DNA from: a virus
Length of the DNA stretch: 64,000 nt
Reading direction: 5' to 3' (one strand)
Virus record (IMG/VR): IMGVR_UViG_3300017917_004576
Span: 1-64,000 of that record
The notes under the pieces were generated by a model that saw only the letters and a program-made list of their open reading frames with translations, was not told the origin of the DNA and made no database searches. Within the stretch, counting starts at the first letter, position 1; every line of letters begins with the position of its first letter. The translations under genes were made by a program, and so were the position numbers. This document shows positions 1 through 45,300 of the stretch, piece after piece.

Positions 1-8
1 AAAGGTCG

Positions 9-244
9 AAAAATATTTTTGGGATCGTAAGTCTAGTATTTTCAAGGATTTACGATTTTCTCAGTTTGAGACGCGATTCTTGGCACTGTAGCATTTTGCT
101 ACACACTGTAGCATTTTGCACAGCATTTTGCTACACCACCTTTGGGGTCGCTGTAAGTTGTTGTTGCACAAGGGTTTACGTCGAGCGGGGCGGCCCGATT
201 TCGCCGTAAGTCCTTATGGGACAAGGGTTTGCGTCGAGTTCTTA
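9..244. repeat. Composite regulatory repeat module, copy 1
   Basis: A-tract; site A 26-54 (cgtaagtctag-tattttc-aaggatttacg); TCTCAGTTTGAGA 59-71; GCATTTTGC boxes at 91, 111, 123; CCACCTTTGGGGTCG; site B 152-180; site C 205-233. Same order and spacing as copy 2. Confidence 0.9.
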
Positions 245-391
245 GAGAATCGTACCATCCCCCCTAATGCGGTACATGATGCCACCGATACTATACAGGC
301 TAATACCCTCGCCCAAATGGCAAACAAACATAGCCGAATAACCATGAATAGCAATCAATCGTAGCAACGTATTTTCAATTTGAATGGTCAT
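242..391 (-). CDS. Small hypothetical protein, 49 aa (not in ORF track)
   Basis: Read manually: ATG at 391, MTIQIENTLLRLIAIHGYSAMFVCHLGEGISLYSIGGIMYRIRGDGTIL, TAA at 242-244. Begins 4 nt after the stop of the upstream minus-strand gene and ends at the module boundary. Confidence 0.6.
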   Translation of the reverse strand: MTIQIENTLLRLIAIHGYSAMFVCHLGEGISLYSIGGIMYRIRGDGTIL

Positions 392-395
392 GTGT

Positions 396-713
396 TCACT
401 CGTCTCCAATAAAGGGACTCATCTCATCATCTGCGAGGCTAGCATATTGCTCTGCGAGAGCAACCACCCTTTCGGGGGAACCGGGCTTGCCAACTGGAAA
501 ACGCATACGATCCTCACCCCCTACCATGCGGGGGTCAGTCTTTTCGATCTTACTCTTGCCAATCTTTCGCAGAGCGGAACGATTGAACTTCAATACCTTC
601 TCGCTGGTAATCGTACCACCATCAGCGGTACGCTTGTCGCAAGGGATCGCCATACCATAGAAGATACCACGAACTGTACGCTTGTATTCTTCAATGATAG
701 GAAACTTTTCCAT
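396..713 (-). CDS. Hypothetical early protein (about 105 aa, start revised to MEKFP)
   Basis: ORF 396..767 trimmed to ATG 713, which follows a purine-rich leader (AGAAAGAGAGAAAGAAA) and the promoter element at 740-767. Confidence 0.7.
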   Translation of the reverse strand: MEKFPIIEEYKRTVRGIFYGMAIPCDKRTADGGTITSEKVLKFNRSALRKIGKSKIEKTDPRMVGGEDRMRFPVGKPGSPERVVALAEQYASLADDEMSPFIGDE

Positions 714-739
714 TTTCTTTCTCTCTTTCTTGTGTCTTG

Positions 740-767
740 ATTCTACCAAACTTTTCTGTCGCGTCAA
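740..767 (-). promoter_or_regulatory. Sigma70-like promoter (repeated element, copy 1)
   Basis: Minus strand TTGACG-cgacagaaaagtttgg-TAGAAT (16-nt spacer, extended -10 TG). Near-identical copies at 942-969 and 1880-1907. Confidence 0.65.
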
Positions 768-773
768 CCCCTA

Positions 774-917
774 TTAGGCGGGGCATGATGGATCGTCGAT
801 TTCCTCAATAACGCAGTCGCAGTGTTCCCAGCATCGAGGACACAATTCAAGGCCCGCAATGTCGGAAACGATTTCAACACCACAGCAATCCGAATAGTAA
901 ACTTCAATCTTGCTCAT
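774..917 (-). CDS. Small Cys-rich putative zinc-binding protein, 47 aa (not in ORF track)
   Basis: MSKIEVYYSDCCGVEIVSDIAGLELCPRCWEHCDCVIEEIDDPSCPA*; has its own promoter element (942-969) and purine-rich leader. Confidence 0.7.
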   Translation of the reverse strand: MSKIEVYYSDCCGVEIVSDIAGLELCPRCWEHCDCVIEEIDDPSCPA

Positions 918-941
918 TCTTTTCTCTCTTTCTTTTCTATG

Positions 942-969
942 ATCCTACCAAACTTTTCTGTCGCCGCAA
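942..969 (-). promoter_or_regulatory. Sigma70-like promoter (repeated element, copy 2)
   Basis: TTGCGG-cgacagaaaagtttgg-TAGGAT on the minus strand, about 25 nt upstream of ATG 917. Confidence 0.55.
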
Positions 970-972
970 CCC

Positions 973-1179
973 TCACTCTTGGGGGGTCTTGGATTTTTCT
1001 TCTTCTTTCTTCTTTCTCCATTCTGCAACGAATGCAACGTAATCGTCAACCGATCCATCACGGTTGTCCCTATGGTAATCGTATCCATCATCCGAACCGT
1101 ATGGACGGTATGAGGAAGTACGGGAAGCCCGATAGGCTCGGAGGTTAGAAGCAGCACTGCGAAACTTTCTATTCATCAT
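973..1179 (-). CDS. Hypothetical early protein, 68 aa
   Basis: ORF track; preceded by leader AAGAAAGAAAGAAAGAGAG and the -24/-12-like element at 1216-1231. Confidence 0.65.
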   Translation of the reverse strand: MMNRKFRSAASNLRAYRASRTSSYRPYGSDDGYDYHRDNRDGSVDDYVAFVAEWRKKKEEEKSKTPQE

Positions 1180-1215
1180 TCAATCTCTCTTTCTTTCTTT
1201 CTTACCCTATATATA

Positions 1216-1231
1216 TGCACTTACTGTGCCA
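1216..1231 (-). promoter_or_regulatory. Sigma54-like (-24/-12) promoter
   Basis: Minus strand TGGCAC-AGTAA-GTGCA (GG-N10-GC) followed by TATATAT; site A of module 2 starts 25 nt further right (1231 to 1256). Confidence 0.55.
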
Positions 1232-1237
1232 TTCACC

Positions 1238-1475
1238 AAAAAATATTTTTTTCTTCCTAAGTCCTTACGCCACAACACTTTACAACTTTCTCATTTTGAG
1301 ACGGGGGTGTGCCAAGGTGAGGCATTTTGCTACAGGTGACGCATTTTGCTACAGCGTTTTGCTACACCACCTTTGGGGTCGTCGTAAGTGCTTGAACCAT
1401 AAGGAGTTACGTCAAAAATGGCGGCCCAATTTCGCCGTAAGTCCTTACGGGACAAGGGTTTACGTTGAATACTTA
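1238..1475. repeat. Composite regulatory repeat module, copy 2
   Basis: Site A 1256-1284; TCTCATTTTGAGA 1289-1301; boxes at 1322, 1341, 1354; CCACCTTTGGGGTCG; site B 1383-1411; site C 1436-1464. Confidence 0.9.
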
Positions 1476-1666
1476 GAAGAGATTCTTTTCATGTCCTCAC
1501 GATACCTGAACAGTAGTTCACGAGCAGACGCGCGTATACCTTCCTTCAGTATCTCACGAGCACTACCCCTCTCATGAGGGAGTCGTACTTGTGCCTCATG
1601 AAGCCATAGTCGTATGGTACTTGTTTTCATACTCTCGAACGATGATTGAAAGTAATTAGTATCCAT
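1460..1666 (-). CDS. Hypothetical early protein, 68 aa
   Basis: ORF track; abuts the upstream ORF (1667) and ends inside site C of module 2. Confidence 0.6.
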   Translation of the reverse strand: MDTNYFQSSFESMKTSTIRLWLHEAQVRLPHERGSAREILKEGIRASARELLFRYREDMKRISSKYST

Positions 1667-1852
1667 TCAAGCATTCTCCACGATGACACTCACGACCTTG
1701 TCGGCATACATAGACCGATAGCCCACCGTCTCATCGTTCACCAGAATCAACGTTCCCTTGTTGGGAATCTCACGAACGCTAACCAGTTCACCAGTGAACG
1801 ACTCACCGGTACTGTAGACCACACTCAACCTATCGCCAACATTGTAAACCAT
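1667..1852 (-). CDS. Small beta-rich (SH3/Sm-like?) hypothetical protein, 61 aa
   Basis: MVYNVGDRLSVVYSTGESFTGELVSV alternating beta pattern; purine-rich leader and promoter element at 1880-1907. Confidence 0.7.
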   Translation of the reverse strand: MVYNVGDRLSVVYSTGESFTGELVSVREIPNKGTLILVNDETVGYRSMYADKVVSVIVENA

Positions 1853-1879
1853 CTTTTTCTCTCTTTCTTTCTTTCTAGG

Positions 1880-1907
1880 ATTCTACCAAACTTTTCTTCC
1901 GCCACAA
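1880..1907 (-). promoter_or_regulatory. Sigma70-like promoter (repeated element, copy 3)
   Basis: TTGTGG-cggaagaaaagtttgg-TAGAAT on the minus strand. Confidence 0.55.
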
Positions 1908-1925
1908 CCCCCCGACTAGGGGCTA

Positions 1926-2156
1926 TCACTGGATCGCATAATCATCGACCACGTAACCCATTTCATCAATCTGGATGAATCCACCATCATCGCAGAATCC
2001 TAACTCATGATTTATTTCGATCATGTTATCATTCTGACGAACCCTTTCCAGAAGATCGCTAGCAAATGCGACACGATTCACGAACGAATCGAGACGGGTA
2101 TTGTTGAGCAAATCGCACAATTCACGAACCGTATTGAGCACAATCATGTTTTCCAT
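1926..2156 (-). CDS. Hypothetical acidic early protein (about 76 aa, start revised to MENMI)
   Basis: ORF 1926..2231 trimmed to ATG 2156 after AGAAAAAGGATAGATAAG; the longer start overlaps the promoter element. Confidence 0.65.
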   Translation of the reverse strand: MENMIVLNTVRELCDLLNNTRLDSFVNRVAFASDLLERVRQNDNMIEINHELGFCDDGGFIQIDEMGYVVDDYAIQ

Positions 2157-2214
2157 CTTATCTATCCTTTTTCTACTTGTTTCCGAAACCCCTTGTTTCG
2201 ATGCCAGATATATA

Positions 2215-2230
2215 TGCGAATGTCGTACCA
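2215..2230 (-). promoter_or_regulatory. Sigma54-like (-24/-12) promoter
   Basis: Minus strand TGGTAC-GACAT-TCGCA (GG-N10-GC) followed by TATATAT; same 25-nt offset to site A (2230 to 2255) as in copy 2. Confidence 0.5.
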
Positions 2231-2236
2231 TTCGAG

Positions 2237-2367
2237 AAAAAAAATCAGATTTTTCGTAACCCCTTGAAAAATATAGGGTTACAGCATTCTCAATTTGAGA
2301 CGGGGGTAAGGATCACTGTAGCATTTTGCGTCATACTGTAGCATTTTGCACAGCATTTTGCTACACC
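2237..2367. repeat. Composite regulatory repeat module, copy 3 (lacks sites B and C)
   Basis: Site A 2255-2283; TCTCAATTTGAGA 2288-2300; GCATTTTGC at 2321, 2341, 2353; then diverges. Confidence 0.85.
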
Positions 2368-2403
2368 CGCTTAGTAGGGGGGTTTTTTCATTTTCTTTTA
2401 TTT

Positions 2404-2419
2404 TGGCACAGATTTTGCA
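2404..2419 (+). promoter_or_regulatory. Consensus sigma54 promoter sequence, plus strand
   Basis: TGGCAC-AGATT-TTGCA, an exact match to the TGGCAC-N5-TTGC(A/T) consensus. Confidence 0.5.
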
Positions 2420-2479
2420 GAAAACCGGGGGTGGTATAAACATAGTAAGCACCAAATAAAATAAATGTACTACCTAAAC

Positions 2480-3394
2480 CTATCTATTAGCCCCATACCA
2501 TTCTATAGTTTCTTTTAATCCAGCATCAAAATCCACCTTTGGTTCCCAGTTCAGTACCTTTTTGGCTCGTGACATATCAAGAAATCTTCGTGGCTGACCA
2601 TCTGGCTGATCACTATTCCACACTATATTTCCATCGTATCCAATAAGTGCTTTTATTTTTTCTGCCAAATCTTTTATTGTTATTTCAACACCACCGCCCA
2701 AATTAATAGGCTTAGGATCAGTATCTACGCTTAAACTTTTTACTATAGCCTCAGCAGCATCATCCACATATAAAAATTCTCGTGTGGCACTTCCGCTTCC
2801 CCAACATTCCACACTACCGTTGTTATTCGCTTTTGCATCAATAAACTTTTTAATCAAGGCCGGAATAACATGACTACTGCCAGGATCAAAATTATCATTT
2901 GGCCCGTATAAATTACAAGGAACCAATACGCAACCATTTAAATTATATTGATTTTTATAAGCTTCTATCATAACATAAAGAGCTTTTTTAGCTATTCCGT
3001 ACGGAGCATTAGTTTCTTCCGGATATCCGTCCCACAAACTATCCTCATTAAAAGGAACCGGAGTATATTTAGGATAACTACAAACCGTCCCTATCTGCAC
3101 AACCTTTTGTACATCAAAAAATCTACAATTTTCAATAACATTTAATCCCATCATCATATTTTGATAAAAAAATGATCCTGGATTAATCCTATTTGCACCT
3201 ATTCCACCAACCACAGCAGCACAGTGTATCACAGCATCTGGCCGATATCTATCAAAAGCATCCTTAGTTTGCTTAGGATTGCACAAATCAAAATTTCTTG
3301 ATCTGAATGTTGAAGCATCATAACCTTGATCTTTTAGAACTTTCATAATTCTAGACCCTAAAAATCCATTGCCACCAGTAACTAAAACTTTCAT
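2480..3394 (-). CDS. fcl: GDP-L-fucose synthase (GDP-4-keto-6-deoxymannose epimerase/reductase)
   Basis: VTGGNGFLG Rossmann motif, AAVVGGIGAN, GTVCSYPK, YGIAKK (YxxxK), PCNLYGPNDNF, SSHVIPALI, REFLYVDD, PDGQPRR. Confidence 0.93.
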   Translation of the reverse strand: MKVLVTGGNGFLGSRIMKVLKDQGYDASTFRSRNFDLCNPKQTKDAFDRYRPDAVIHCAAVVGGIGANRINPGSFFYQNMMMGLNVIENCRFFDVQKVVQIGTVCSYPKYTPVPFNEDSLWDGYPEETNAPYGIAKKALYVMIEAYKNQYNLNGCVLVPCNLYGPNDNFDPGSSHVIPALIKKFIDAKANNNGSVECWGSGSATREFLYVDDAAEAIVKSLSVDTDPKPINLGGGVEITIKDLAEKIKALIGYDGNIVWNSDQPDGQPRRFLDMSRAKKVLNWEPKVDFDAGLKETIEWYGANR

Positions 3395-3423
3395 ATTATT
3401 TTCCTTATGCTATATGATTAAAT

Positions 3424-3447
3424 AAAAAAGGGGCAACTTAATGCCCC
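3424..3447 (-). terminator. Rho-independent terminator
   Basis: GGGGCA-TTAAGT-TGCCCC followed by a T run on the minus strand, downstream of gene 3481-3717. Confidence 0.6.
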
Positions 3448-3480
3448 AATTTTATTCATAATTTAATTTAGAATTTACGT

Positions 3481-3717
3481 TCAACCATTATCATTGGATG
3501 ATGCAAACGATGCGGGTATTGAGGCGTTTTTATTCTTTGGTTGACGACCTCGTGGCTTTTGAATACCAAGCTTGCGCCTTTGTCGTCGCACCATAGGAGT
3601 AGTAATACTACTATTTGTTATTTGACTCAATCGTACAGCAATCTCATCATCAGAAATAACATTAAAATTATCACGGATAAAATCCAATTCGATCTGACCC
3701 CATTTTCTATAGCTCAT
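3481..3717 (-). CDS. Small putative HTH DNA-binding protein
   Basis: MSYRKWGQIELDFIRDNF...SDDEIAVRLS...VRRQRRKLGI resembles Myb/GcrA-like HTH; GGAGA Shine-Dalgarno before ATG 3717. Confidence 0.6.
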   Translation of the reverse strand: MSYRKWGQIELDFIRDNFNVISDDEIAVRLSQITNSSITTPMVRRQRRKLGIQKPRGRQPKNKNASIPASFASSNDNG

Positions 3718-3743
3718 TTTATTCTCCCCATATAGTGTAAATA

Positions 3744-3771
3744 TTGACAATGTGATGATCAACTCTATTAT
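3744..3771 (+). promoter_or_regulatory. Sigma70-like promoter for the plus-strand operon
   Basis: TTGACA-N16-TATTAT at the divergence point of the two transcription directions. Confidence 0.45.
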
Positions 3772-3807
3772 ACTATAGTTTTGGTTCTTTTAAGCAAGGG
3801 GCTCAAT

Positions 3808-3984
3808 ATGATTAATTTTGATTCTAATATTACCAATCTTACATCTTCGATCTTATCGGTCAAAGCATCAGGATCAATAATTGACCAAATTCAAAATGAT
3901 CTTAATTTACCAGACGGAGACGACATAACCACTCTATTAAATAATGAAGAAAAAAACAAATCAAACCATCAAAGCGGTGAGTGA
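3808..3984 (+). CDS. Hypothetical protein
   Basis: ORF track 3781..3984; ATG 3808 follows AAGGGG. Confidence 0.4.
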   Translation: MINFDSNITNLTSSILSVKASGSIIDQIQNDLNLPDGDDITTLLNNEEKNKSNHQSGE

Positions 3985-4585
3985 CGACGAATTTTTAGCC
4001 GTTTTAGATAAAATTACTAAAAGATTAGCTCACAAATTTAAATTCGGCTATCATAGCATAGAGGATATGAAACAACAAGCGGCCATATTCGCACTAGAAG
4101 GATTAAAAAATTATGATCACAAAAGGCCCCTTGAAAACTTTTTGTGGACTCATGTACGAAATCGCTTATTTAATTACAAAAGAAATAACTATCAAAGACC
4201 CGACAAACCTTGCTTAACTTGTCCGCTATATGATGCTTCTTATAAAGTTTCTAATAATCAGTGCTCTAAATTTATTGACAAAAAGGAGTGTGAGCCATAT
4301 GCTTCGTGGGCCAAACGAAATGATGCTAAAAAGAATATTGCTAAACCATCTTATTTTGAAGACTTAAATTTAGCATCATCATCTAATGGTTCTCACGAGC
4401 ATAACGAGATAGTTAATTTTCTTGACAAAAATATCCGCTCAGACTATAGAGAAAGTTATCTAAAACTAAAACACAATCAAAAAATTAACAAGTCTGATCT
4501 TAACAAACTTAAAAAACACATTATGGAAATAATGGAGGAACACAATTGGAAAACAGCAGAATTCCCAAAAAACGAGGACAACTAA
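3944..4585 (+). CDS. Phage RNA polymerase sigma-factor-like protein with Cys-rich insert
   Basis: Region-2-like EDMKQQAAIFALEGLKNYDHKRPLENFLWTHVRNRLFNYKR, then CLTC...C...C. Confidence 0.7.
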   Translation: MKKKTNQTIKAVSDDEFLAVLDKITKRLAHKFKFGYHSIEDMKQQAAIFALEGLKNYDHKRPLENFLWTHVRNRLFNYKRNNYQRPDKPCLTCPLYDASYKVSNNQCSKFIDKKECEPYASWAKRNDAKKNIAKPSYFEDLNLASSSNGSHEHNEIVNFLDKNIRSDYRESYLKLKHNQKINKSDLNKLKKHIMEIMEEHNWKTAEFPKNEDN

Positions 4586-5376
4586 GTTTAGATGAAGAAG
4601 CTTATATTCGTGAGAATGTTAATTTATTAAGCATAGATGCTATAGCCTCTAATCTTAATCGTCACGAAGGACCAATTAAACGATATATTAATGAAAATAA
4701 TTTACTAATTGATCCAGAAGACAAAGCGGCTTATGAAACTCTAAAAGATAAATTACATAGCAAAACCTTTTGGATAGAAATTACACGTCAGTTTGATGCT
4801 GACAGTGGCGAACTCCAATACTTTGAAGATACCTGGGTTGGACTAATAAAACAGTTTAGAGAAGATGTTTTACCAGCAGAAGAGTTGCAAATTAAACAAT
4901 TTATCACTATTGATATATTAATTAATCGCAGCATGAAAGAACGAAAAAGACACATTAGTGAAACTGAAAAATTACAAAAACTTGTGGATAAAGAATATGA
5001 AAAAAGCGAGGATCAAAGAGATATACCGAAACTGGCTAATCTCGAAACTCAATTGTCGTTTGCCCGCAACAGTATCGCTAATTACACTAATGAATATACC
5101 AAACTTCTTAATGAACAACAGAAAATTAGTAAAGATCTTAAAGCTACTAGGGAACAAAGAATAAAAAGAATAGAAGATGGTAAAAGTAGTTGGGTTGGTT
5201 TAATACGAATGCTAGAAGACGAAATAGTAAGAGAAAAAGAAGGCAAAGAAATGGAAATTCTTGGAATGGCAGCAACCGGAGCCAAAGAAAGAATGCAACA
5301 ATATCATACTTATCAAGACGACACTGTGGACGTACCATTACTAACACCAGAATTTATGGAAAATCACAATGAATAA
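4546..5376 (+). CDS. Coiled-coil protein with N-terminal HTH-like segment; possible terminase small subunit
   Basis: 276-aa ORF, HTH-like N-terminus, long coiled coil, upstream of TerL. Function is positional inference only. Confidence 0.4.
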   Translation: MENSRIPKKRGQLSLDEEAYIRENVNLLSIDAIASNLNRHEGPIKRYINENNLLIDPEDKAAYETLKDKLHSKTFWIEITRQFDADSGELQYFEDTWVGLIKQFREDVLPAEELQIKQFITIDILINRSMKERKRHISETEKLQKLVDKEYEKSEDQRDIPKLANLETQLSFARNSIANYTNEYTKLLNEQQKISKDLKATREQRIKRIEDGKSSWVGLIRMLEDEIVREKEGKEMEILGMAATGAKERMQQYHTYQDDTVDVPLLTPEFMENHNE

Positions 5377-6361
5377 AACAGCTATAATAACAGGCATTAC
5401 TGGTCAAGATGGCAGCTATCTAGCCGAACTATTATTAGAAAAAGATTACAAAGTTGTTGGATTATATCGACGTAGTAGTTCGTACCATTTTGAAAGAATA
5501 TCCAGCATAGTAGATCATCCTAATTTAACTCTTTTGGAATTTGATCTTACAGATCCTTCCGTAATACTATCCATATTAAAACAATACGAACCAGACGAAT
5601 TCTATAACTTGGCCGCTATGAGTCATGTGGGAACCAGTTTTCACCAGCCCTCCACAACGTTTGATATTAATACCATGGGGGTTTTACATATTTTAGAGGG
5701 TATAAGAACCACATCATCTGCTACAAAATATTATCAAGCTAGCACTAGCGAAATGTTTGGTAAAAATTATAGTGTTGATAAAAATAATAACAAATATCAA
5801 GATGAAAATACTCCACTAATTCCACAAAGTCCGTATGCTGTTAGCAAAGTTGCTAGTCATAATTTGGTACGCATATATCGTGATGCTTATAATATTTTTG
5901 CTACTAGTGGCATACTATTTAATCATGAAAGTCCGCGCCGTGGTGAAAATTTTCTAACGCGAAAAGTTACCAAATATATTGGCCAATTAGTTAACAACAA
6001 AACATCAGACAATTTAAAACTTGGTAATCTTCAAGCTTACAGAGACTGGGGTCACGCTAAAGATTATGTATATGCTATGTATTTGATGCTACAGCAAGAT
6101 GTTCCTGACGACTTTGTTATTTGTACCGGTCAAACTCATAGCGTATTAAATTTTGTTATCAAATCCTTTGAGAGTGTGGATTTGGACTACAAACAATATG
6201 TAGAAATTGATCCATCATTATATCGACCAGCAGAAGTTGACTATTTATGTGGCCGATCTCTTAAAGCTCAAAAAGTACTAGGATGGATTCCATCAACTTC
6301 TTTTGATGATTTAGTTAGCGAAATGATACAAAGCGATATTAAAGTTTACGCTAATGTTTAG
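5369..6361 (+). CDS. gmd: GDP-mannose 4,6-dehydratase
   Basis: ITGITGQDGSYLAELLL, YNLAAMSHV, YQASTSEMFG, SPYAVSK, GILFNHESPRRG, RDWGHAKDYV, RPAEVDYL. Confidence 0.96.
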   Translation: MNKTAIITGITGQDGSYLAELLLEKDYKVVGLYRRSSSYHFERISSIVDHPNLTLLEFDLTDPSVILSILKQYEPDEFYNLAAMSHVGTSFHQPSTTFDINTMGVLHILEGIRTTSSATKYYQASTSEMFGKNYSVDKNNNKYQDENTPLIPQSPYAVSKVASHNLVRIYRDAYNIFATSGILFNHESPRRGENFLTRKVTKYIGQLVNNKTSDNLKLGNLQAYRDWGHAKDYVYAMYLMLQQDVPDDFVICTGQTHSVLNFVIKSFESVDLDYKQYVEIDPSLYRPAEVDYLCGRSLKAQKVLGWIPSTSFDDLVSEMIQSDIKVYANV

Positions 6362-36394: not shown

Positions 36395-39300
36395 ATGGCA
36401 CAAGCCTTTAATTTAACCGCACAATTAAATTTGCGTGGACCATCAAATGTTAGGCAAATAGTTTCGGATGTTAAAAAACAACTTGGTACAATTACTGGTG
36501 ATATAAAATTTAATATTGATCCATCAGCAATTAATAATACAACAAAACTTAGTAAATCATTACAACAACTAAGTTCCGACCTATCTTCTGTTTCGTCCAA
36601 CGCTACTGCGGCAGCATCTGCTATTAAAAATTTTGGTCAAAGTATAAATTCTATTAGTAATTCTTCTAATAAATTATCTTCTAATATAAATAAAACAATA
36701 AGTAGTTCTGGTAATTTAGGAACAACAGTAACAAAAACAGCAAAAAATATTTCTGTAGCACGAACAGAGATGGAAGAATTTGGTCGTCAAAGCGCATTAG
36801 CCATTCGTCGTTTTGCTGCATTTAGTGCTGTAACAGGAGTATTTTTTAGTCTTAATAGAGCAATTAATAGCGGATTGAAAAGCTTTATAGAATTTGATAA
36901 AGAATTAGTGCGATTACAGCAAGTTACTGGTCAAAGCGCCGATGGATTAAAAGGACTCCAAGATGAAATTACAAGACTATCAACTGGTCTTGGTGTTAGT
37001 TCTGATAGTTTAATTCAAGTATCATCAACATTAGCTCAGGCAGGATTAAGCGCTAGAGAAACTGAACAGGCCTTAAAAGCATTAGCATTAACAGAATTAG
37101 CGCCTAGTTTTGATGATATTAATCAAACAGTCGAAGGATCTATTGCTCTAATGAGACAGTTTGGCATAGCAGCAAAAGATTTAGAAAAAGCATTAGGTAG
37201 TGTTAATAGTGTTGCAGCAGCTTTTGCTGTTGAGTCTAGCGATATTATTGCGGCTATACAACGAACCGGTGGTGTGTTTGCAACCGCGAGTAAAGGAGTT
37301 AGCGAAGGAGCAGACGCTCTTAATGAATTTATAGCCGTGTTTACTAGTGTTCGTGCCACAACGCGTGAAAGCGCCGAAACAATCGCTACAGGTTTGAGAA
37401 CTATTTTTACACGTATTCAAAGACAAGGTACTATAGAAGCACTCAAAGAATTTGGTGTTACACTGACTGATGCCGAAGGTAAATTTGTTGGTGCATACAA
37501 GGCTGTACAGTTACTTAGCGAAGGATTAAGTAGTATAGATCCTAGAGACATAAGATTTAGCCAAATAGTTGAAGAGCTTGGTGGTTTTCGTCAAATTGGC
37601 AAAGTTATTCCATTGATTCAACAGTTTGCTACCGCACAAGATGCTTTGAGAGTGGCTCAGGCTGGTCAGGGTAGTTTGGCAGCAGATGCTGCTAAAGCAC
37701 AATTAAGTTTAGCCAATCAAATAGCTAAAGTGAGAGAAGAATTTTTAACATTAATTCGTAGTTTGGGACAAAGTGATACTTTTCAAACTTTAGCTAGAGG
37801 AGCATTAACATTTGCTAGTGGTCTTATTAAGATTACAGATGCTGTTAAAGGTGTTTTACCTTCACTTGCTATTTTAGCAGCTGGGGCTAGTTTTAGAGGA
37901 TTAAGTCAATTTACTAGCGGATTTATTGGTGGTTTGAAAAAAGTTCCAAAAGGAGGACCAGGAGCACAACAACCACAAAGCGTGGTTGGTTCTATTGGAA
38001 GAAATATTGGAAGTAGTCTTGTTGGTGCTAAAACAGAACAAGTTAGTAGAGACTTAGATCAAAATAGCGCCGCTCTAGATAAGCTTTCTGGTAAAATAGA
38101 TTCTTTGGTATCTTCAATGTCTTCTATTAATGGCTTAACATCCGGTATAACTGCATTGAATACCAACTTAGTATCTATTAATAGCGCTTTAGCATCATAT
38201 AATTCTGCATTACTAAATAATACCAATGCTTTATCTAGTAATAGTAGCTCTCTAGAGAATGTTTATGCTGCTTTAGTTAATTTAGATGCTACTTTAGATA
38301 GAAAAGATTTCGGAGGCGGTGGACCAACTACTGCTAGTGGTGGTGGTCGTATTTTGGGTTTCTCTAAAGGAGGCAGTGTTCCCGGTAGCGGAAGAGGAGA
38401 TAAAGTACCAGCATTATTAGAACCTGGCGAAGTGGTAATGAGTAATCGAGCTGTTAATAAGTATGGAAGAGGTAATTTGGTTAATATGAATAAAAGATAT
38501 TTTAAAGGAGGTATAGCCCGAGAAAAGCTTCAAACACTAGTTGAAAAAAGCAATAGTATTAAAAAATATATTAATGACACTATCAATCCAGATGATGAAG
38601 CATTAACAAAGATAGTTCCATTTCGTGTTGATCTTGATGATAATGATTTCAGAGAAATGAAACAAATCATGATAGATACTGAAAGGCAAAGACTTAGATA
38701 TTTAGAAACATATCGTGATGATCCCACAGCAAATAAACAAGTGGGACAGAGAGCCAGAAGCAGCAAAGACCCTAGAACAGTTGTTGGATTTCTTGGTCTG
38801 AAAAAACCAGAATCTCATTGGGGTCCAGGTAATGCTTTTCAACAGCATTTAATTAAAAGACTAAATATTTCACCAAGCGATATGCCCCCTAATCTTGGCA
38901 CACCACAAGAACAATTTAAAGATATTATAGACGAACATTATGCTGTTTTAGACTACCAAGACGGTGATGCTAAATTTTGGAAAGATCTAAGTTATTTTGA
39001 TACACAACCCGGAAAAATAGACATACTAAATAAACAATTTAAAAATGTAGTCAATAATAATCAACTAAAACCAAAACCAACCCCAAATTATGAACTTTTT
39101 ACTTTACCGGATACGCGAGTTTATTATCCTGAGATTGGCACAAAAGAACAATTTATGCGAGATTATGCGGCGTTTACCACAGCAGATTATGCAAAAACAC
39201 ATCTTCCAGCAGGAGCTTATTCTATTGGTGGAAAAATTCAAAAATTTGCTGGTGGAGGAGAAGCGCTACAGTCCAAGTTATCAACTATAAGAACTCTTTT

Positions 39301-42300
39301 GGGCGAATTTTATGGAGGTGATGAACAACTTATATCAAAATCAATTTCTAATTCTATGATAATTGATGAGGCTCGTGCTGATAAAATTATTGCTAACTTA
39401 GAATCATCTAGATCACAGTTGCCATTATTTAAAAAACTATTTTCAGAAAAATCGTCTTCTGTTGGTGTTTTAAATGGATTTCCAATAGCCAGGTATGGTG
39501 CTATTGGTGGTACTGAGACTATGAGATTTGATGAACTAAAAGACGAAGAAACTATTAGAGAGTTTATAAAAAGAGGAAAATTAGCAACACAAGCTTCGCG
39601 TGGTCCGGTTGGTAAACGCATAGTTTATGGTGATCAAAAAGCAGCAAGACGAAGGTTTGCGGTTGGCGGAACAGTAGAGGGCATAGCTGCTAAAGAAAAA
39701 AAATCTATTGAAACTGTAATTTTAGAACAATTATCCAGTTTTGGAGATGCTAGCGGAGTTAAAAAAATACTAGGATTAGGAGCTGGAGAAAGAGAGATTA
39801 GCTCTATATTGAATGCTAGTAATATTAGAGCCGGTAAAAACATAGAAAAAGCTATTAAATTTATAAATAGGGCGCTAGCTAAGACAGGAAAACAAGATGC
39901 TGCTAGAGAAGCAAAAGAAGCAGCCATGAGAAAAGTTGCAATTGCCGGATTATTTCCATTAGATTATAATAAAGATTTTTCAGACTGGAAGTTGGAAGAT
40001 GGTAGAGAAATTTATGGTTATGTTAGAGGATTTCAATCTAGCTTTTTACCACAAATAGAAGCTATGCAAGAGGCCAATAGAGCTACTCGTCAAAAATTTG
40101 CTGAAGATATTCAAGATACGGCAGCATTAGGCGGATTAGGTAATAGAAATATTCAGGGGCCAATTCAACCATTAGCAATAGATTTTGATGAAACACTAGC
40201 TCTTGGAACAAAAATGCTAGATGAAAATGGCGAAGAAGATTTACCAGCCTACTCTGATAGAAAAAAAGTTATGGAAAGTCTAGCCCAAGCTAGACCAACC
40301 TCACTAGCTAAAAGATTGGCCAGTATAGAACAAAAAAATCCTGGATATGTTAGGATGTTTAGTCGTATCTTAACGGCCCGTCCTCAAAGTACGGCGGATA
40401 TTATAGCATCAACTCTTAATAGGTTCGGATTACCATATTTAGAACAAGATGTTACTGGAGTTAGTCAAGGACTAGGAACAAATATAGCAAAAGCTAAAGC
40501 CGCTGATGTTGCAAGAGCCGAAAAATTAATCGATGATAATGAAAAAAATATTAGAGCAACAATGGCTGCTGGTAAAAGTACTTTTCGTTATGGTGAAGTA
40601 CCAGAGCTCAAAGGACCAGCAGAAGAAAAATTTGGACAATCTAATATTGAAGGAGGTATGCTAGAAGCAGCATTATCACAATTATTGGGCTATAATATAA
40701 ATGTTGATGCTTTACAAAGAAATAGAGCGATTGATTTTCCTAATGGCCTAGGCAGAGGCGCTCAACTTTTTGGATTACCTCCGAATATTGAAACAGAAGT
40801 AAAAAGAACTTTGGACGGAGACAGTTTTTCAAAAGCCAGAGAAGAATTTAGTAGATACTTTAAAGAAAATCCACAAGCCTTTGCTAAAGGAGGAACAGCA
40901 ACATTTGGTTCTGGAGCATTTAAATTCCCCAAAAGAATAAGTAATGCTTATGTTCGGGAAATGGAAAAATTATTAGAACAAGAACAAATGGAAAAGGTTT
41001 TTTCAACATATCCTGGTAATGAAAGAATGGTTGTGGACGAGGAGGCTGTGAAAAAAGGATATGAATCTCCTTTTACTAGAGAACTATTCATAAATTCGTT
41101 TAAGGATAAAATAAATAGAAATACAGTTTTTGAAAGAATGGGGCAATTTGCGCGAGTTATAGGATTGCCACCCACCGATCTTTTATCTGCAATACCAACT
41201 CAATTAGACTTTGGTGTTAATTATCCTGCTACAGCATTATTTAGCAAGGATCCTTCTGGCCCAGGAACCAGGGGACTACAAGGAGTGGATCTGACACCAT
41301 ATGGTTATACTGAACAAGATAAACAAGATTTATTCGGATATACTAAACTAATAGAAGAAAAAAAGAAACAAATATTAAAAACAATTAAAACTCCTGTTAC
41401 AACATATGAAGATGGTAGTTTTAGCTATGATACGGCTTTAGCAGAAAAACTAAGAGCAGAATTAGACGATTTACAAAAACAACAAAGATCTCTTATTGAT
41501 AAAAACAATGCGGCTATCAAAGCTGCAAAAGAATCCAGACTACAATCCGCAAACCAGAGTGGTCGTGGTAGCGTTGGCATAGCGACGAATCCATTTAATA
41601 CAAGTCAACGTCAAGATTATAGTATTTTGTATCATGAATTAACTCATCAACTTTTTAATAGTCTTAGAACTAAAAACGCTCAATCATTCGAAGCATACAA
41701 GGCAAAAGTTTCTAGTTTATTTAGTGGAAACAATGATGATGTGGCCGATGCTTTTGATGCTCTGGTTGGAAATACAGGATATAATAGTGCTGATGTCGCC
41801 TATGGAAGAAGTTATAAACTTAGTGGACTAAGCAGCTTGATGATAGGATCAGCCAAAGAGTCATTTGCAAAATATGTTAATAGTGATCCAGAATATATTC
41901 CAGAATTAAGAAAAACTTGGGCAGCAACTAATTCTACAACAACCGCCAAAGCTTTTAAACCACTGAATCCTAAAGTTAATGATATTTTATTAAGAGGTAA
42001 AATAAGCCAAGATGTTATAGATAAATATGAAGATAATGGTAAAGAAGAATTTTTAACAACATTAATACAAAAATTACCATTATTAGATGAAAATCTAAGC
42101 GGAGTTTTGGATAGTACTCTGGATGACCTATTGGGAGGTGCTGGAATAAGTAGACAAAAATTTGCTCTCGGTGGATTAGCAGATTCTAAAGATGCTATGT
42201 CTGGATTAATGCAAGGATTATATGGAAATAGAAATCAACAAACAGACAAAAAAGAAAAAGATTTTGGGAAAATAAGCATTACAGAAGATGGCGATATGCT

Positions 42301-45300
42301 TAGTGTTGGATATCTTAAAAATGATAGTAGATCAGGATATGTACAAGCAATGAAATATAAAGATAATCTATGGTATGTTGGATTATCAAAAGCTACTAAA
42401 GGATATGGACCAAGATTGTACGATGTGGCTATGGAGGCTGTTACTGAAAAAGGAGCTATGCTAACTTCTGACAGAAGCATGGTTAGCGCGGATGCTCAAA
42501 AGGTTTGGGCTTATTATTTTAAAAATAGAGGAGATGTTAAAAAAACACCATTAGAACCAGAAAATTGGACTAAAAATCAAGCACTAATAGACCCTAAGCT
42601 TTATGGAAGAAGAGAAACATGGCCACCAGCAACCGATCCGGCTTGGATACTACAGAGCGGCTATAGTAAGAGCCCTACCTTGCTTAATGATCCAGAACAA
42701 GTAAAAAGAAATAATAATAAAGCAAAAAAACCTATTGATTCTAGAAGCATGGCTCTATCATATTTTCAAAGAGCCGATGGCGGACCAATAAGCCGTTTTG
42801 CTGATGGTGGTTCTGTTCCGGCCTTAGTAAGTAACGGCGAAGCTTATGTGCCTCCTAAACTTGCTAAACGTATTGGTTACGGAACACTAGATCGTATGAA
42901 TCAAGCTGATAAAAATGGTATGGGGCGATTTAGTGATGGTGGAATTAGCGTATTTAAGGGACCGGGAAGTGGAACTAGCGATAGCATACCCACAAATCTA
43001 CCAGTAGGAAGTTTTATAATAAGAGAAAAGGCCACTAAAGCACTAGGTTTAAATAGTGGTGGTATTGTTGGAATAAGAAGATTTAAAGACGGTGATAAGG
43101 TTTCTTATGGAAGAAAAGACACAACTGGTATTCGGATGCCCATGCCTGATCTTGGATTTCTAAAGACAAGCGCAATATTATTAGTAGATAGCTTTAGAAC
43201 TACAGAACAAATGATAAGTAATAGCTATTCAGCCTGGCAAGAGATAGACAAAGTGGCTCCGATTTTAGCAAAGACTTTAGATAGATATTATAGTACTATC
43301 GATGCAACATTAGATGATGCTAGTTTGATGGTGCAAAGCTACCGTGCAGTAGTCGTGTCTTTGGCTAAACAAGGAAAAACAACGGCAGAAGTTGATGCTA
43401 TAATGACTCATTATATTGATGCTCTAAATAAAGCAATAGATACATATCAAAATCCTGCCCCTATAGAGTCTCCAAAATCAACAACAACATATACAGTTAC
43501 TCCACCACGCCCTCGTCGCAGAAACAGATCTTCTTTATCACCAACCCCACCTCCCGTACCCAAATCTGCCGAGCAAAAACTAGCAGCAGTAGAAAACGAA
43601 GCAATTGCTCAAAGAATAGAGTCAAAAGAAAGAATCAAATCAGAATATGACCCATTATACAGAGCAGCATCGTCCAGAGAAGATAAGCAAGCGATACAAG
43701 ATGAAGCTAGGCTAAAATTTCAAGCTGTTGATGCTACCATACAGGCCAATAAAGCTGCTCAACAACAAATAATACTACAAGAACTATTGGCTCAAAGAGC
43801 TAAAGAAGCTAATCAATCCACAGAAGAATATATATCTGGGTTACAACAAGAAATTGATACTAGATCAATCAATATTATGGAGCAAGATTTTAGCAATGTA
43901 CTAGGACCAGATGTGCCGTCCACACAAGAAGCAAGACAACAAGCACTTAGCGAGACTATTAGATCTAGAGGACTACAAGCATTTGATGTGACTGATCTAG
44001 GACAAGGCACCAATATAAAAGATATAATATCACAAATTTCCGAAACAAAAAATAAGGCCCAGGCTGCTGCCACAGCGAACGATTATTTGGCTTTGAGAGC
44101 AAGACTAGCCGGACAAAGTCTTGAGGAATATTCTCAGTCATTATCTGATCAGGCTTTAAATTTAGCTGAACAATTTAAGAATAATCTTCCTAGAGCTTTA
44201 GATAGTTTTCAAGAACAATTATTTGATGCTAAACAAAGTCTTGAAAATATAAGCGCTAGAGAAGCAAAAGGAGAATATGCTAATCAAGAAGGACAAGAGA
44301 GAAAAGCTATAGATATTTCACAACTAGAAGAAAGTATAGGAGATACTCTTGAAAATATTCTAGGAGAAAATTTTTCTGGAGATGATAGAAATAAAATATT
44401 ACAAGATATTATGGAAAAGCTAAAAAATGCTGATTCAACACAAGCTTTTAATGTTCAAAGTCTTTCCGACGCTATAAAACAAATATCAACCGATGAAGCA
44501 ATAGCTTCAAGAGCAACAGCAACAGTCGCTGCCCAAAATAAAATACAACCAAATCAAATTACAGGAGCTACAGCAGAAGCTCTAAAATCCAGAGGAGAAA
44601 CTCAACAACTATTTAAGGAAATCGATAAAATATCTGCAAAATTTAGTAAATTTGGTTTAGCTATAGGAGCTGCTGGTAGCGTTATAGCTAAATTTATAGA
44701 TGCAACAGAAAGTAGAAGTGCAGCGATGGCAGCGGCAGCAATTTCTGGTGGCACATCCACAGCTTCCACGCTAGCAGTTGGTGTTGGACAAGGTCTTCAA
44801 ACTTTAAAAGATTTATCTGATCCTAAAGGATTATTTGGTAACACTGGTATAGGAAAATTGGCTGGATCAGTATTGCCTGGTCTCAAAGAAGTATTGACCG
44901 GTCCTTTCGGAATAATTGCTGGGGCGGGGATCTCTTTAGCAGCAGCTTTTAAAGATGCTTACAATGCGGCACGAGAATTTGATAAGCAGCTAAATACTAA
45001 AACTGTTGAAAATAGTTTGAGTAAAGTTGGCACAATGTTTGATCAGTTTGGTAAAGATATGAGTCAGAAAGATTTGCTTGGAGATATCAGCAAAGAATTA
45101 AACACTGCTATATCAGCCGCTATGAAAAATATTAATATCGATGCCACTGTACCAAAAATGTTTTGGGTTAATATGATAGATGCTGCTATGGGCGGAAGCG
45201 AAGCTGCTCAACGAAGTATAGTTCTTGAAAAACAAGGAGTTGGTGCTTATTTTAATACTATTATGCCAGGAGGGAATCAGCAGTTGGAATCGTATATGTC

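What the first reader, a model, noticed from the sequence alone, without database searches (positions are those of the whole stretch)
1..2420. Repeated sigma54-promoter / bend-site / enhancer-like module heading cassettes of small phage genes
Seen: a roughly 240-bp non-coding module occurs three times with nearly fixed geometry. Measured from the start of site A (26, 1256, 2255), TCTCA-N3-TGAGA lies at +33 in all copies and GC(A/G)TTTTGC boxes at +65/66, +85/86 and +97/98. The box at 87-103 is a perfect palindrome, TGTAGCA-TTT-TGCTACA. In copies 2 and 3 a minus-strand GG-N10-GC element (TGGCACAGTAAGTGCA, TGGTACGACATTCGCA) ends 25 nt before site A and points into the adjacent gene cassette. Established: sigma54 (RpoN) promoters are TGGCAC-N5-TTGC, need AAA+ enhancer-binding proteins bound to palindromes about 80-150 bp upstream, and often use an IHF site in between. 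Inference: the palindromes fall at about -85 to -155 and site A at about -50 to -80, the classic layout. The phage may therefore drive each early cassette from a host sigma54/enhancer system, tying expression to host physiology. I know of no well-described phage example.
Basis: partly seen in the sequence, partly recalled or inferred. Interest (0 to 1): 0.85.

Follow-up and report, generated by a model that had tools for sequence, protein, structure and literature searches.

The report
Sigma-54-type promoter cassettes in phage
An uncultured long-tailed phage starts two or three groups of tiny genes from control cassettes built like bacterial sigma-54 promoters with upstream activator sites, so a host signalling protein probably decides when these genes fire, a strategy known from very few phages.

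Summary
The window is the left end of a 120-kb viral contig. Bases 1-2400 are a 46% GC array of tiny minus-strand genes; the rest is about 33% GC.

Each module reads, in the direction of transcription: three TGTAGCA-N3-TGCTACA-type boxes, a 13-bp dyad, a 29-bp palindrome, an A/T tract, then TGGCAC-N5-KYGCA.

- In related viral contigs the -24/-12 letters and all distances are kept while the 5-nt spacer varies.
- The element predicted left of position 1 is present in relatives.
- No sigma-54 or activator gene was found in the five records searched for both (G000, G001, G006, G007, G008), among them one with terminal repeats.
- The same box palindrome lies between an activator gene and a sigma-54 promoter in two bacterial genomes.

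Limits: the host is unknown and no 5' end is mapped. Relatives carry only 1-3 modules, so not every cassette has one. The IHF reading is inconclusive.

Precedent exists: Pseudomonas phage YuA (PMC5053324). This scan has already noted the same module family on other DNA.

Verdict: a real feature, most likely an enhancer-dependent sigma-54 promoter, and a new member of a known kind.

The parts
1216..1231 (-). -24/-12-type promoter element of copy 2, TGGCACAGTAAGTGCA, followed by TATATATAG. The predicted start is near 1205 (12 nt after the C of GC).
   Evidence: Conserved with a variable spacer in relatives. The start position is inferred, not mapped.
2215..2230 (-). -24/-12-type promoter element of copy 3, TGGTACGACATTCGCA. 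Close relatives have TGGCAC here. The predicted start is near 2204.
1238..1252 (.). A/T tract AAAAAATATTTTTTT just upstream of the -24 element of copy 2. The equivalents are 9-20 in copy 1 and 2237-2254 in copy 3.
   Evidence: Mostly A or T (often 28-31 of 31) at positions -17 to -7 before TGG across 31 unique promoter segments.
1256..1284 (.). The equivalents are 27-55 in copy 1 and 2255-2283 in copy 3.
   Evidence: Half-site CGTAA-R-Y-CCTT. The IHF core match is inconclusive.
1289..1301 (.). 13-bp dyad TCTCA-N3-TGAGA of copy 2. The equivalents are 59-71 and 2288-2300.
   Evidence: Always 57 nt from TGG. Replaced by TGCCA-N3-TGGCA in distant relatives L099 and L113.
1318..1366 (.). Three activator-type boxes of copy 2, with cores GCRTTTTGC at 1322, 1341 and 1354. 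They lie about -117 to -157 from the predicted start.
   Evidence: Symmetric consensus TGTA-GCAAAATGC-TACA over 53 unique boxes.
87..135 (.). Three boxes of copy 1, with cores at 91, 111 and 123. 87-103 is a perfect 7-3-7 palindrome. The promoter of this copy lies beyond the contig start.
   Evidence: The promoter is present in relatives L002, L006 and L008.
2317..2365 (.). Three boxes of copy 3, with cores at 2321, 2341 and 2353.
1382..1464 (.). Pair of 29-bp palindromes (1382-1410 and 1436-1464) around a GC-rich spacer. It directly follows the stop of the upstream gene. The equivalent in copy 1 is 152-233; copy 3 has none.
   Evidence: Kept in distant relatives. Function unknown.
2366..2388 (+). 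Boundary element of copy 3: C-run, G-run, then TTTTTT. It is where the GC-rich region ends.
   Evidence: Present in 8 unique boundary variants.
2404..2419 (+). Perfect TGGCAC-N5-TTGCA pointing right, away from the small genes.
   Evidence: Kept in the L038 group. The L043 group has a tandem-oriented equivalent. Absent from 5 of 8 boundary variants.
973..1179 (-). First gene behind the copy 2 promoter (68 aa). It is followed by 774-917 (47 aa), 396-713 (105 aa) and 242-393 (50 aa).
   Evidence: No Pfam match at E <= 0.05 and no PHROG match at E <= 0.001, only two weak hits (0.0034, 0.0097) for the 68-aa protein.
1926..2156 (-). First gene behind the copy 3 promoter (76 aa, MENMIVLN...). It is followed by 1667-1852 (61 aa) and 1460-1666 (68 aa).
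   Evidence: The start was chosen from homologues in relatives. No family match.
714..771 (-). Short intergenic unit: stem-loop, sigma-70-like TTGACG-16-TAGAAT, then a purine-rich leader. Further copies lie at 916-973 and 1854-1911.
   Evidence: Only the 767-740 copy passes the scanner's threshold.

Best explanation
Each module is an enhancer-dependent, sigma-54-type promoter region.

1. Host RNA polymerase carrying sigma-54 would sit on the minus-strand TGGCAC-N5-KYGCA element as a closed complex.
2. An AAA+ enhancer-binding protein of the NtrC family would bind as dimers to the three TGTAGCA-N3-TGCTACA-type boxes, about 90-130 bp upstream of the -24 element, and assemble into an active ring.
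3. The fixed stretch in between holds the A/T tract, the 29-bp palindrome and the 13-bp dyad. It would bend the DNA or carry further regulators so that the ring reaches the polymerase.
4. ATP hydrolysis would then open the promoter. Transcription would start near 1205 and 2204 on the minus strand and run through purine-rich leaders into groups of tiny genes.

The phage and its complete relatives encode neither sigma-54 nor such an activator. Both would therefore come from the host, and these genes would fire only when a particular host signalling pathway is on.

Shown: the sequence architecture, its conservation, and the missing phage genes.
Inferred: binding, start sites, and dependence on the host.
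For: - The element matches the sigma-54 consensus (recalled: TGGCACG-N4-TTGCW). It occurs 3 times in the window against 0.11 expected.
- Across 23 unique upstream segments, spacing and the -24/-12 letters are kept while the spacer has at least 9 versions.
- In distant relatives the -12 part becomes the exact TTGCAT (L085, L086, L091, L109).
- G follows TGGCAC in 26 of 31 unique segments, a position my pattern did not fix.
- 33 unique contexts keep boxes upstream, usually three, with a symmetric consensus.
- Geometry is fixed: 57 nt from dyad to TGG in 22 of 23.
- No PF00158 activator was found in 9 related records. The two weak hits are a RuvB-like protein.
- No sigma-54 DNA-binding domain was found in 5 records.
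- Bacterial counterparts exist. In a Candidatus Poribacteria chromosome, the only three TGTAGC-N5-GCTACA sites of 5.5 Mb lie between a GAFTGA activator gene and TGGCACGTTTGTTGCT. In L225 one box lies between a divergent activator gene and TGGTATAGCATTTGCA, 79 nt away.
- In all, 4 of 120 loci listed have a GAFTGA gene within about 1 kb of the box.
- Precedent: phage YuA depends on host sigma-54 (PMC5053324, passage).
Against: - The host is unknown, so the presence of rpoN and of a fitting activator cannot be checked.
- No 5' end is mapped. RNA-library contigs only show that stretches such as 1188-1427 and 1352-1848 are held, bridging the predicted start. That fits read-through or DNA carry-over as well.
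- The strongly kept TATATAT after the -12 element is not part of the sigma-54 consensus and could belong to another recognition system.
- Boxes 2 and 3 are only 12-13 bp apart centre to centre, which is tight for two 17-bp dimer sites.
- Box-to-promoter distances differ between sub-families by amounts that are not whole helical turns.
- The genome scan for dyad plus two boxes found nothing in bacteria.
- The GC-rich region is incomplete in close relatives, so an activator gene there cannot be excluded for this phage itself.
Confidence: 0.6

Rival explanations
1. The promoter is read by something other than sigma-54: a phage-specific factor, or host sigma-70 polymerase with a phage activator. 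The boxes, dyad and palindromes would be operators for phage-encoded regulators that time a middle class of genes.
For: - The TATATAT block after the GC and the A/T tract before TGG are as well conserved as the -24/-12 letters.
- The phage encodes a sigma-70 region-2-like protein at 3944-4585, next to the boundary.
- Dozens of tiny unknown proteins are available as candidate binders.
- The element between boxes and promoter changes between sub-families, as operators of diverging regulators would.
Against: - From the end of TGGCAC to TATATAT is 10-11 nt, far from the 16-18 nt of sigma-70-type -35/-10 pairs.
- The match to the sigma-54 consensus extends to an unforced position and, in relatives, to the exact TTGCAT.
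- The same box type is tied to activator genes and sigma-54 promoters in bacteria.
- The element occurs only 1-3 times per genome, too few for a phage-wide promoter class.
Confidence: 0.2
2. The repeats are mainly recombination substrates. Either they are mobile promoter cassettes that shuffle small genes by homologous exchange, as PeSL units do in T4-like phages, or the 11-7-11 palindromes are core sites of a site-specific recombinase.
For: - The same gene sits behind different module types. MENLIVLN follows the copy-3 type in L002 and L058, and the copy-2 type in L005.
- MVY(N/H)VGDR follows a sigma-70-like unit in the window, but the sigma-54-like promoter in L070.
- Module number and order differ between relatives.
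- Contigs often break inside the repeats.
- The 11-7-11 geometry is confirmed.
- PeSL precedent: PMC4122927 (abstract read).
Against: - No tyrosine or serine recombinase in 5 of 5 related records.
- No strand-specific folding of the palindrome pair: the sense strand is more stable in 5 of 12.
- Shuffling explains why the repeats persist, but not why the -24/-12 letters and exact distances are kept while the spacer drifts.
- This reading is compatible with the promoter reading rather than a replacement for it.
Confidence: 0.12
3. The module is a replication origin, partition site or packaging signal built from iterons and palindromes.
For: - Iteron-like triple boxes, an A/T tract and palindromes.
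- Position at the end of several contigs.
Against: - Up to three copies per genome, each at a fixed distance from a promoter-like element that points into genes.
- A relative with terminal repeats carries its single copy in the middle of the small-gene array, far from the ends.
- Contig ends inside repeats are expected from assembly.
Confidence: 0.04

Closest known systems
Bacterial enhancer-dependent sigma-54 promoters (glnAp2 with NtrC sites, norV with three NorR sites; named from my own knowledge, not from a tool)
   Same: - GG-N10-GC core.
- Dyad-symmetric 7-3-7 sites about 100-150 bp upstream, in groups of two or three.
- An intervening stretch suited to bending.
   Different: - It lies in a phage.
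- The activator and sigma factor are not encoded nearby.
- There is a conserved TATATAT after -12.
- Extra 13-bp dyad and 29-bp palindromes of unknown role.
- Two of the boxes overlap.
Activator gene / three boxes / sigma-54 promoter locus of a Candidatus Poribacteria MAG (L148), and the divergent activator/operon locus L225
   Same: - The same TGTAGCA-N3-TGCTACA palindrome: three copies in L148, one in L225.
- The box lies 79-220 nt before TGG of a sigma-54 promoter.
- In L148 the promoter is also followed by TATATAGG.
   Different: - The bacterial loci carry the activator gene next to the sites; the phage does not.
- There is no dyad, A/T tract or 29-bp palindrome.
- Binding of these activators to the boxes is inferred from position only.
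Sigma-54 use by Pseudomonas aeruginosa phage YuA
   Same: A virulent phage reported to depend on host sigma-54. It has a sigma-54-like promoter region (P015) with a mapped start (PMC5053324 and PMC10914365, passages read).
   Different: - An unrelated phage and host.
- I could not read the original paper (Ceyssens 2008 is not held), so I cannot say whether YuA has upstream activator sites.
- Here the evidence is sequence only.
PeSL promoter-terminator cassettes of T4-like phages
   Same: - Short repeated regulatory units between small variable genes.
- Gene shuffling between relatives at these units (PMC4122927, abstract).
   Different: - PeSLs carry sigma-70 early promoters. Only the three short units in the window are of that kind.
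- The 240-bp module has a sigma-54-type core and enhancer-like sites.
- The phage is not T4-like.

Membership tests
Enhancer-dependent sigma-54 promoter | GG and GC doublets exactly 10 nt apart, in a TGGCAC-N5-TTGCW context | tested here: met
   TGGCACAGTAAGTGCA (1216-1231) and TGGTACGACATTCGCA (2215-2230). There are 3 matches against 0.11 expected. The consensus is recalled, not from a tool.
Enhancer-dependent sigma-54 promoter | Homologous copies keep the -24/-12 letters and spacing while the spacer is free | tested here: met
   23 unique upstream segments with at least 9 spacer versions. G after TGGCAC in 26 of 31. TTGCAT in 4 distant relatives.
Enhancer-dependent sigma-54 promoter | Dyad-symmetric activator sites about 80-200 bp upstream | tested here: met
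   Three boxes at about -117 to -157. The consensus is symmetric over 53 unique boxes. The same palindrome lies next to activator genes in 4 of 120 bacterial loci. Binding was not tested.
Enhancer-dependent sigma-54 promoter | Sigma-54 present in the cell | not testable with these tools
   The host is unknown. No PF04552 in G000, G001, G006, G007, G008, so it would have to be the host's.
Enhancer-dependent sigma-54 promoter | AAA+ activator with a GAFTGA loop | not testable with these tools
   None in 9 phage records. The two weak hits are RuvB-like. A host activator cannot be examined.
Enhancer-dependent sigma-54 promoter | Transcription start about 12 nt after the GC, and dependence on rpoN | not testable with these tools
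   Only contigs of RNA libraries were on hand. They cannot show starts or strand.
Enhancer-dependent sigma-54 promoter | IHF site between enhancer and promoter (frequent, not obligatory) | tested here: inconclusive
   Core WATCAANNNNTTR (recalled) with at most 1 mismatch in 8 of 27 unique spacers, against 14.6% of shuffles. Copy 3 has 12 of 13; copy 2 is at chance level.
PeSL cassettes of T4-like phages | Stem-loop plus sigma-70 early promoter between small variable genes | tested here: not met
   True of the three short units (714-771, 916-973, 1854-1911). Not true of the 240-bp module, whose core is of the -24/-12 type.
PeSL cassettes of T4-like phages | Host phage of the T4 type | tested here: not met
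   The terminase is only 23-25% identical to any cultured phage, the best being siphovirus-type Bacillus and Microcystis phages. It has a 5,586-aa tape measure.
Site-specific recombination sites (Xer-type or integron-type) | Cognate recombinase gene in the element | tested here: not met
   No PF00589 and no PF00239 in 5 of 5 records. A host recombinase is not excluded.
Site-specific recombination sites (Xer-type or integron-type) | Strand-specific folded structure (integron attC type) | tested here: not met
   The sense strand folds better in only 5 of 12 unique palindrome pairs. The G.T excess (41 against 7) comes down to two transition variants of one half-site.
N4-type hairpin promoters for a virion RNA polymerase | Giant virion RNA polymerase gene | tested here: not met
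   The 5,586-aa protein matches tape-measure families only.

The most novel reading that the evidence does not exclude
A family of large, apparently virulent freshwater phages has copied the enhancer of a host two-component activator onto mobile sigma-54 promoter cassettes. A block of its take-over genes would then be switched by a host environmental signal. The cassettes would duplicate and move between gene groups, so that the set of signal-gated genes changes from strain to strain.
Probability: 0.35. Interest if true: 0.7.

Novelty: new member of a known kind. Interest (0 to 1): 0.5.

Why it matters
Phages are generally thought to run their early programme from strong constitutive sigma-70 promoters or with their own polymerases. 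A sigma-54 promoter is silent until an ATP-driven activator fires.

A phage that uses one without encoding the activator hands a decision to a host sensor. That is a way of reading host physiology during infection.

Only phage YuA is on record as depending on sigma-54 (PMC5053324, passage). The present family adds a complete enhancer architecture, a candidate site type shared with bacterial activator loci, and signs that the cassettes move.

The site type also gives a handle for finding the host: look for bacteria whose activator loci carry the same boxes.

Tried and rejected
**Assembly chimera at the GC jump.** Rejected. The same GC-rich/AT-rich junction with modules is seen in L002, L005, L006, L007 and L008.

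**Virion RNA polymerase with N4-type hairpin promoters.** Rejected. The giant ORF is a tape measure.

**Structured RNA.**
- No Rfam match at E <= 1.
- Folds of both strands gave z-scores from +0.8 to -4.5 without a consistent strand.
- The palindrome pair is no more stable on one strand: 5 of 12.
- My first idea was that the G.T excess (41 against 7) marks a plus-strand hairpin. I dropped it. The two arms are simply the A-C and G-T versions of one half-site, and many copies are near-identical.

**Plus-strand sigma-70-like sites** (TTGAGA-17/18-TAGCAT at 66-94 and 2295-2324). The scanner found 5 sites against 5.0 expected, and the site is not kept in copy 2. Treated as chance.

**Host identification.**
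- No similar DNA in cultured phages.
- The 105-aa protein has no match in cultured phages.
- A relative's 173-aa protein is spread over phages of many hosts.
- Dyad plus two boxes: 0 hits in bacterial genomes.
Most are terminator loops of gut Clostridia, so taxon enrichment could not be judged.
- L160 and L177 have sigma-54-like matches near a box, but in the wrong orientation or at a terminator.

**RNA libraries.**
- Four runs of one study, kept as contigs, hold parts of 1-2400.
- Bins 2506-2839 and 3007-3841 had no cover in any run.
- By the tool's own rules this shows neither silence nor transcription. Contigs give no starts or strands. No weight is placed on it.

**Literature.**
- Ceyssens 2008 is not held.
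- Supplements were not consulted. Those of PMC10914365 may list the YuA promoter sequences.
- The searches found no other phage case. This does not show that none is in print.

Full report
**Where the stretch lies**

The window is bases 1-64000 of a 120,068-bp viral record rated 82% complete. The finding therefore sits at the very left end of the contig.

- The first 2-kb bin has 45.8% GC. All 60 other bins have 38.7% or less.
- The rest of the record encodes a large terminase, a portal, a homing endonuclease and a 5,586-aa tape measure. Its terminase is only 23-25% identical to that of any cultured phage.
- AT-rich genes often carry GGAG-type ribosome sites. This argues against a Bacteroidota host (inference).
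- The GC jump is not an assembly artefact. Five other contigs show the same junction with the same modules (L002, L005, L006, L007, L008).

**The observation**

- TGGYAC-N5-KYGCA gives 3 matches in the window against 0.11 expected (0 of 100 shuffles reach 3).
- GCRTTTTGC gives 9 matches against 0.92 expected (0 of 100 shuffles reach 9).
- The small genes all lie on the minus strand.

In the direction of transcription, each module reads as follows:

1. In copies 1 and 2 only, a pair of 29-bp palindromes around a GC-rich spacer, directly after the stop of the gene before.
2. Three boxes.
3. The 13-bp dyad.
4. One 29-bp palindrome (site A).
5. An A/T tract.
6. TGGCAC-N5-KYGCA followed by TATATAT.
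7. A purine-rich leader and a start codon.

Relative to a start 12 nt after the GC (1205 and 2204), the parts lie at these positions:

| Part | Position |
|---|---|
| A/T tract | about -33 to -47 |
| Site A | -51 to -79 |
| Dyad | -84 to -96 |
| Box cores | -117 to -157 |

Three other genes have a shorter repeat unit of their own, with a stem-loop and a sigma-70-like promoter. One of these, TTGACG-16-TAGAAT with a TG before the second hexamer, passes the scanner.

**Relatives**

- An exact 26-mer from the boxes found 7 further viral contigs.
- The pattern dyad plus box found 46 stretches. The pattern TGGCAC-N5-KYGCATWTATAT found 55.
- From these I collected 127 dyad-plus-box instances. They reduce to 44 unique sequences. 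Of these, 29 carry at least two boxes; the other 15 carry one box and are unrelated.
- The dyad-to-TGG distance is 57 nt in 22 of 23 unique upstream segments. In the 23rd my regular expression anchored on another TGGCAT, and I did not re-measure it.
- The -24 part is TGGCAC in most copies, TGGCAT in a few, and TGGTAC only in the window's copy 3. The -12 part is GTGCAT or TCGCAT. The 5-nt spacer has at least 9 versions.
- The contigs that carry the homologue of copy 1 (L002, L006, L008) have TGGCA(T/C)GGGAAGTGCATTATATAG at the place that falls just left of position 1 of the window.

**More distant relatives**

The promoter pattern gave 44 unique contexts.

- 13 contexts have the dyad.
- 16 more have no dyad but keep the boxes, the A/T tract and the purine-rich leader: L077, L078, L080, L081, L083, L085, L086, L091, L094, L097, L099, L102, L107, L109, L110, L113.
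- 15 are unrelated contexts. Even among these, 11 of 15 have G after TGGCAC.

Across 33 unique contexts with boxes:

- Three boxes are usual.
- Their offsets from TGG differ by sub-family: for example -131/-118/-99, -147/-105/-84 and -106/-94/-75.
- The element between boxes and promoter changes. In L099 and L113 it is TGCCA-N3-TGGCA in place of TCTCA-N3-TGAGA; elsewhere it is something else again.
- Four relatives have the exact TTGCAT.

Over 53 unique boxes the flanks give a symmetric consensus, TGTA-GCAAAATGC-TACA. G follows TGGCAC in 26 of 31 unique promoter segments, and my pattern did not fix that position. The extended consensus TGGCACG-N4-TTGCW is recalled from the literature, not taken from a tool.

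**How many modules, and where**

- In L036 the GC-rich small-gene region runs for at least 11 kb. Modules lie only within the first 2 kb next to the AT-rich part. L035 has three modules at the same edge.
- A pattern count gives 2 promoters in this record and 1 each in G001, G006, G007 and G008.
- G006 has direct terminal repeats and is rated complete. Its single copy lies in the middle of a long array of small genes.

The modules therefore head a few gene groups, not every cassette.

**Activator and sigma factor**

- PF00158 found nothing in G000, G001, G004 and G005.
- In G006-G010 it found only two weak hits. They belong to a 301-aa RuvB-like protein.
- PF04552 found nothing in G000, G001, G006, G007 and G008.
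- The GC-rich region is cut short in the close relatives, so a gene there cannot be fully excluded for this phage itself.

**Bacterial counterparts of the box**

A scan for dyad plus two boxes in one genome per species found nothing. Many of these hits are loops of terminator hairpins in Clostridia. Four of the 120 loci have a gene with a GAFTGA-type loop within about 1 kb of the box: L148, L168, L225 and L235.

- **L148** is from a Candidatus Poribacteria chromosome. A histidine kinase gene and a 624-aa NtrC-type activator gene are followed by three boxes. TGGCACGTTTGTTGCTTATATAGG follows 112 nt after the last box, and then a gene. These are the only three TGTAGC-N5-GCTACA sites in that 5.5-Mb genome.
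- **L225** has a 660-aa activator gene that diverges from an operon. The genome's single box lies in between, 79 nt before TGGTATAGCATTTGCA. Its record title was not among the rows shown.

This ties the site type to sigma-54 activators by position. It does not show binding, and it does not name the phage's host.

**The other parts**

- The 29-bp sites are 11-7-11 imperfect palindromes with half-site CGTAA-R-Y-CCTT (25 unique). An earlier first-reader note on this stretch (e1-6152999) gave me that description.
- An apparent excess of G.T over A.C pairs (41 against 7) suggested a plus-strand hairpin. But the palindrome pair folds no better on one strand (5 of 12), Rfam finds nothing, and the fold z-scores show no consistent strand. 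I therefore read them as double-stranded protein sites.
- No tyrosine or serine recombinase gene is present in 5 of 5 records.
- The IHF core (recalled) is matched with at most one mismatch in 8 of 27 unique spacers, against 14.6% of shuffles. Copy 3 has TTTCAAGGGGTTA; copy 2 is at chance level. This is inconclusive.

**Signs of shuffling**

- The gene starting MENLIVLN follows the copy-3-type promoter in L002 and L058, and the copy-2 type in L005.
- MVY(N/H)VGDR follows a sigma-70-like unit in the window, but the sigma-54-like promoter in L070.

This resembles what PeSL units do in T4-like phages (PMC4122927, abstract read; PMC2839356, search listing only). It may explain why the modules are duplicated.

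**RNA data**

Four metatranscriptome runs of one study, labelled freshwater, hold parts of the stretch as contigs.

- Pieces cover, for example, 1188-1427 and 1352-1848, so they bridge the predicted start and the enhancer.
- Contigs show neither starts nor strand, and DNA may be present in such libraries.
- This neither supports nor refutes the reading.

**What is known**

- PMC10914365 (passage read) reports a sigma-54-like promoter region, YuA P015, among mapped starts.
- The original paper is not held.

Earlier notes of this scan, which are unchecked AI notes, describe sigma-54-type promoters in many other phage records. They also describe this same module grammar on three other genomes (e1-6081639, e1-5904154, e1-5815416). 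The scan has therefore found this before on other DNA.

**Verdict**

- The feature is real and highly ordered.
- The best reading is an enhancer-dependent sigma-54 promoter served by host factors (confidence 0.6).
- The main rival is a phage-specific recognition system using the same DNA (0.2).
- A recombination role is likely to be an added property rather than an alternative.
- It is a new member of a known kind.
- Its interest lies in the complete architecture, the link to bacterial activator loci and the mobility of the cassettes.

Noticed in passing
window 1-2400 against 2401-64000: A sharp composition step: 46% GC in the small-gene region against about 33% in the rest of the phage. The step recurs at the same junction in at least five other contigs. 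Why one phage keeps two compositions is unexplained.
   Followed up: partly
window 2404-2419 (+): A perfect TGGCAC-N5-TTGCA points right, away from the small genes, towards the end of a minus-strand GDP-fucose-synthase-like gene. It is kept in the L038 group, is present in tandem orientation in the L043 group, and is replaced by a TGAGA-N5-TCTCA palindrome in 5 of 8 boundary variants. Its target is unknown.
   Followed up: partly
window 714-771, 916-973, 1854-1911 (-): Short intergenic units with a stem-loop, a sigma-70-like promoter and a purine-rich AAGAAAGAGAGAAAG leader. They resemble PeSL cassettes of T4-like phages. On the plus strand the stem-loops are followed by T-runs, like terminators against antisense transcription.
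   Followed up: partly
window 36395-53155 (+): A 5,586-aa tape-measure protein (PHROG tape-measure families at both ends). This implies a very long tail. An earlier report of the scan covers it.
   Followed up: no
window 3944-4585 (+): A 213-aa protein with a weak sigma-70 region-2 match (Pfam E 2e-4, below the cut-off; PHROG sigma factor E 1e-5). It sits just right of the boundary and is syntenic in L008. It is possibly the phage's own late sigma factor.
   Followed up: no
window 2480-3394 (-) and 5369-6361 (+): By my reading of the translations, these are GDP-fucose-synthase-like and GDP-mannose-dehydratase-like genes. No family search was run on them. Relative L008 shows no ORF of that size in the corresponding interval.
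   Followed up: no
L148 6476-6720 (Candidatus Poribacteria MAG): A two-component activator locus whose only three genomic TGTAGC-N5-GCTACA sites precede a consensus sigma-54 promoter. It looks like a clean, uncharacterised activator-enhancer pair.
   Followed up: partly
L120, L129, L132, L135, L141 and many others: In gut Clostridia the same 17-bp palindrome forms the tip of many intrinsic terminator hairpins (GGGGC-TGTAGCA-TTT-TGCTACA-GCCCC, then a T-run). One MAG has at least 7 such loci. This suggests a repeated terminator element.
   Followed up: no
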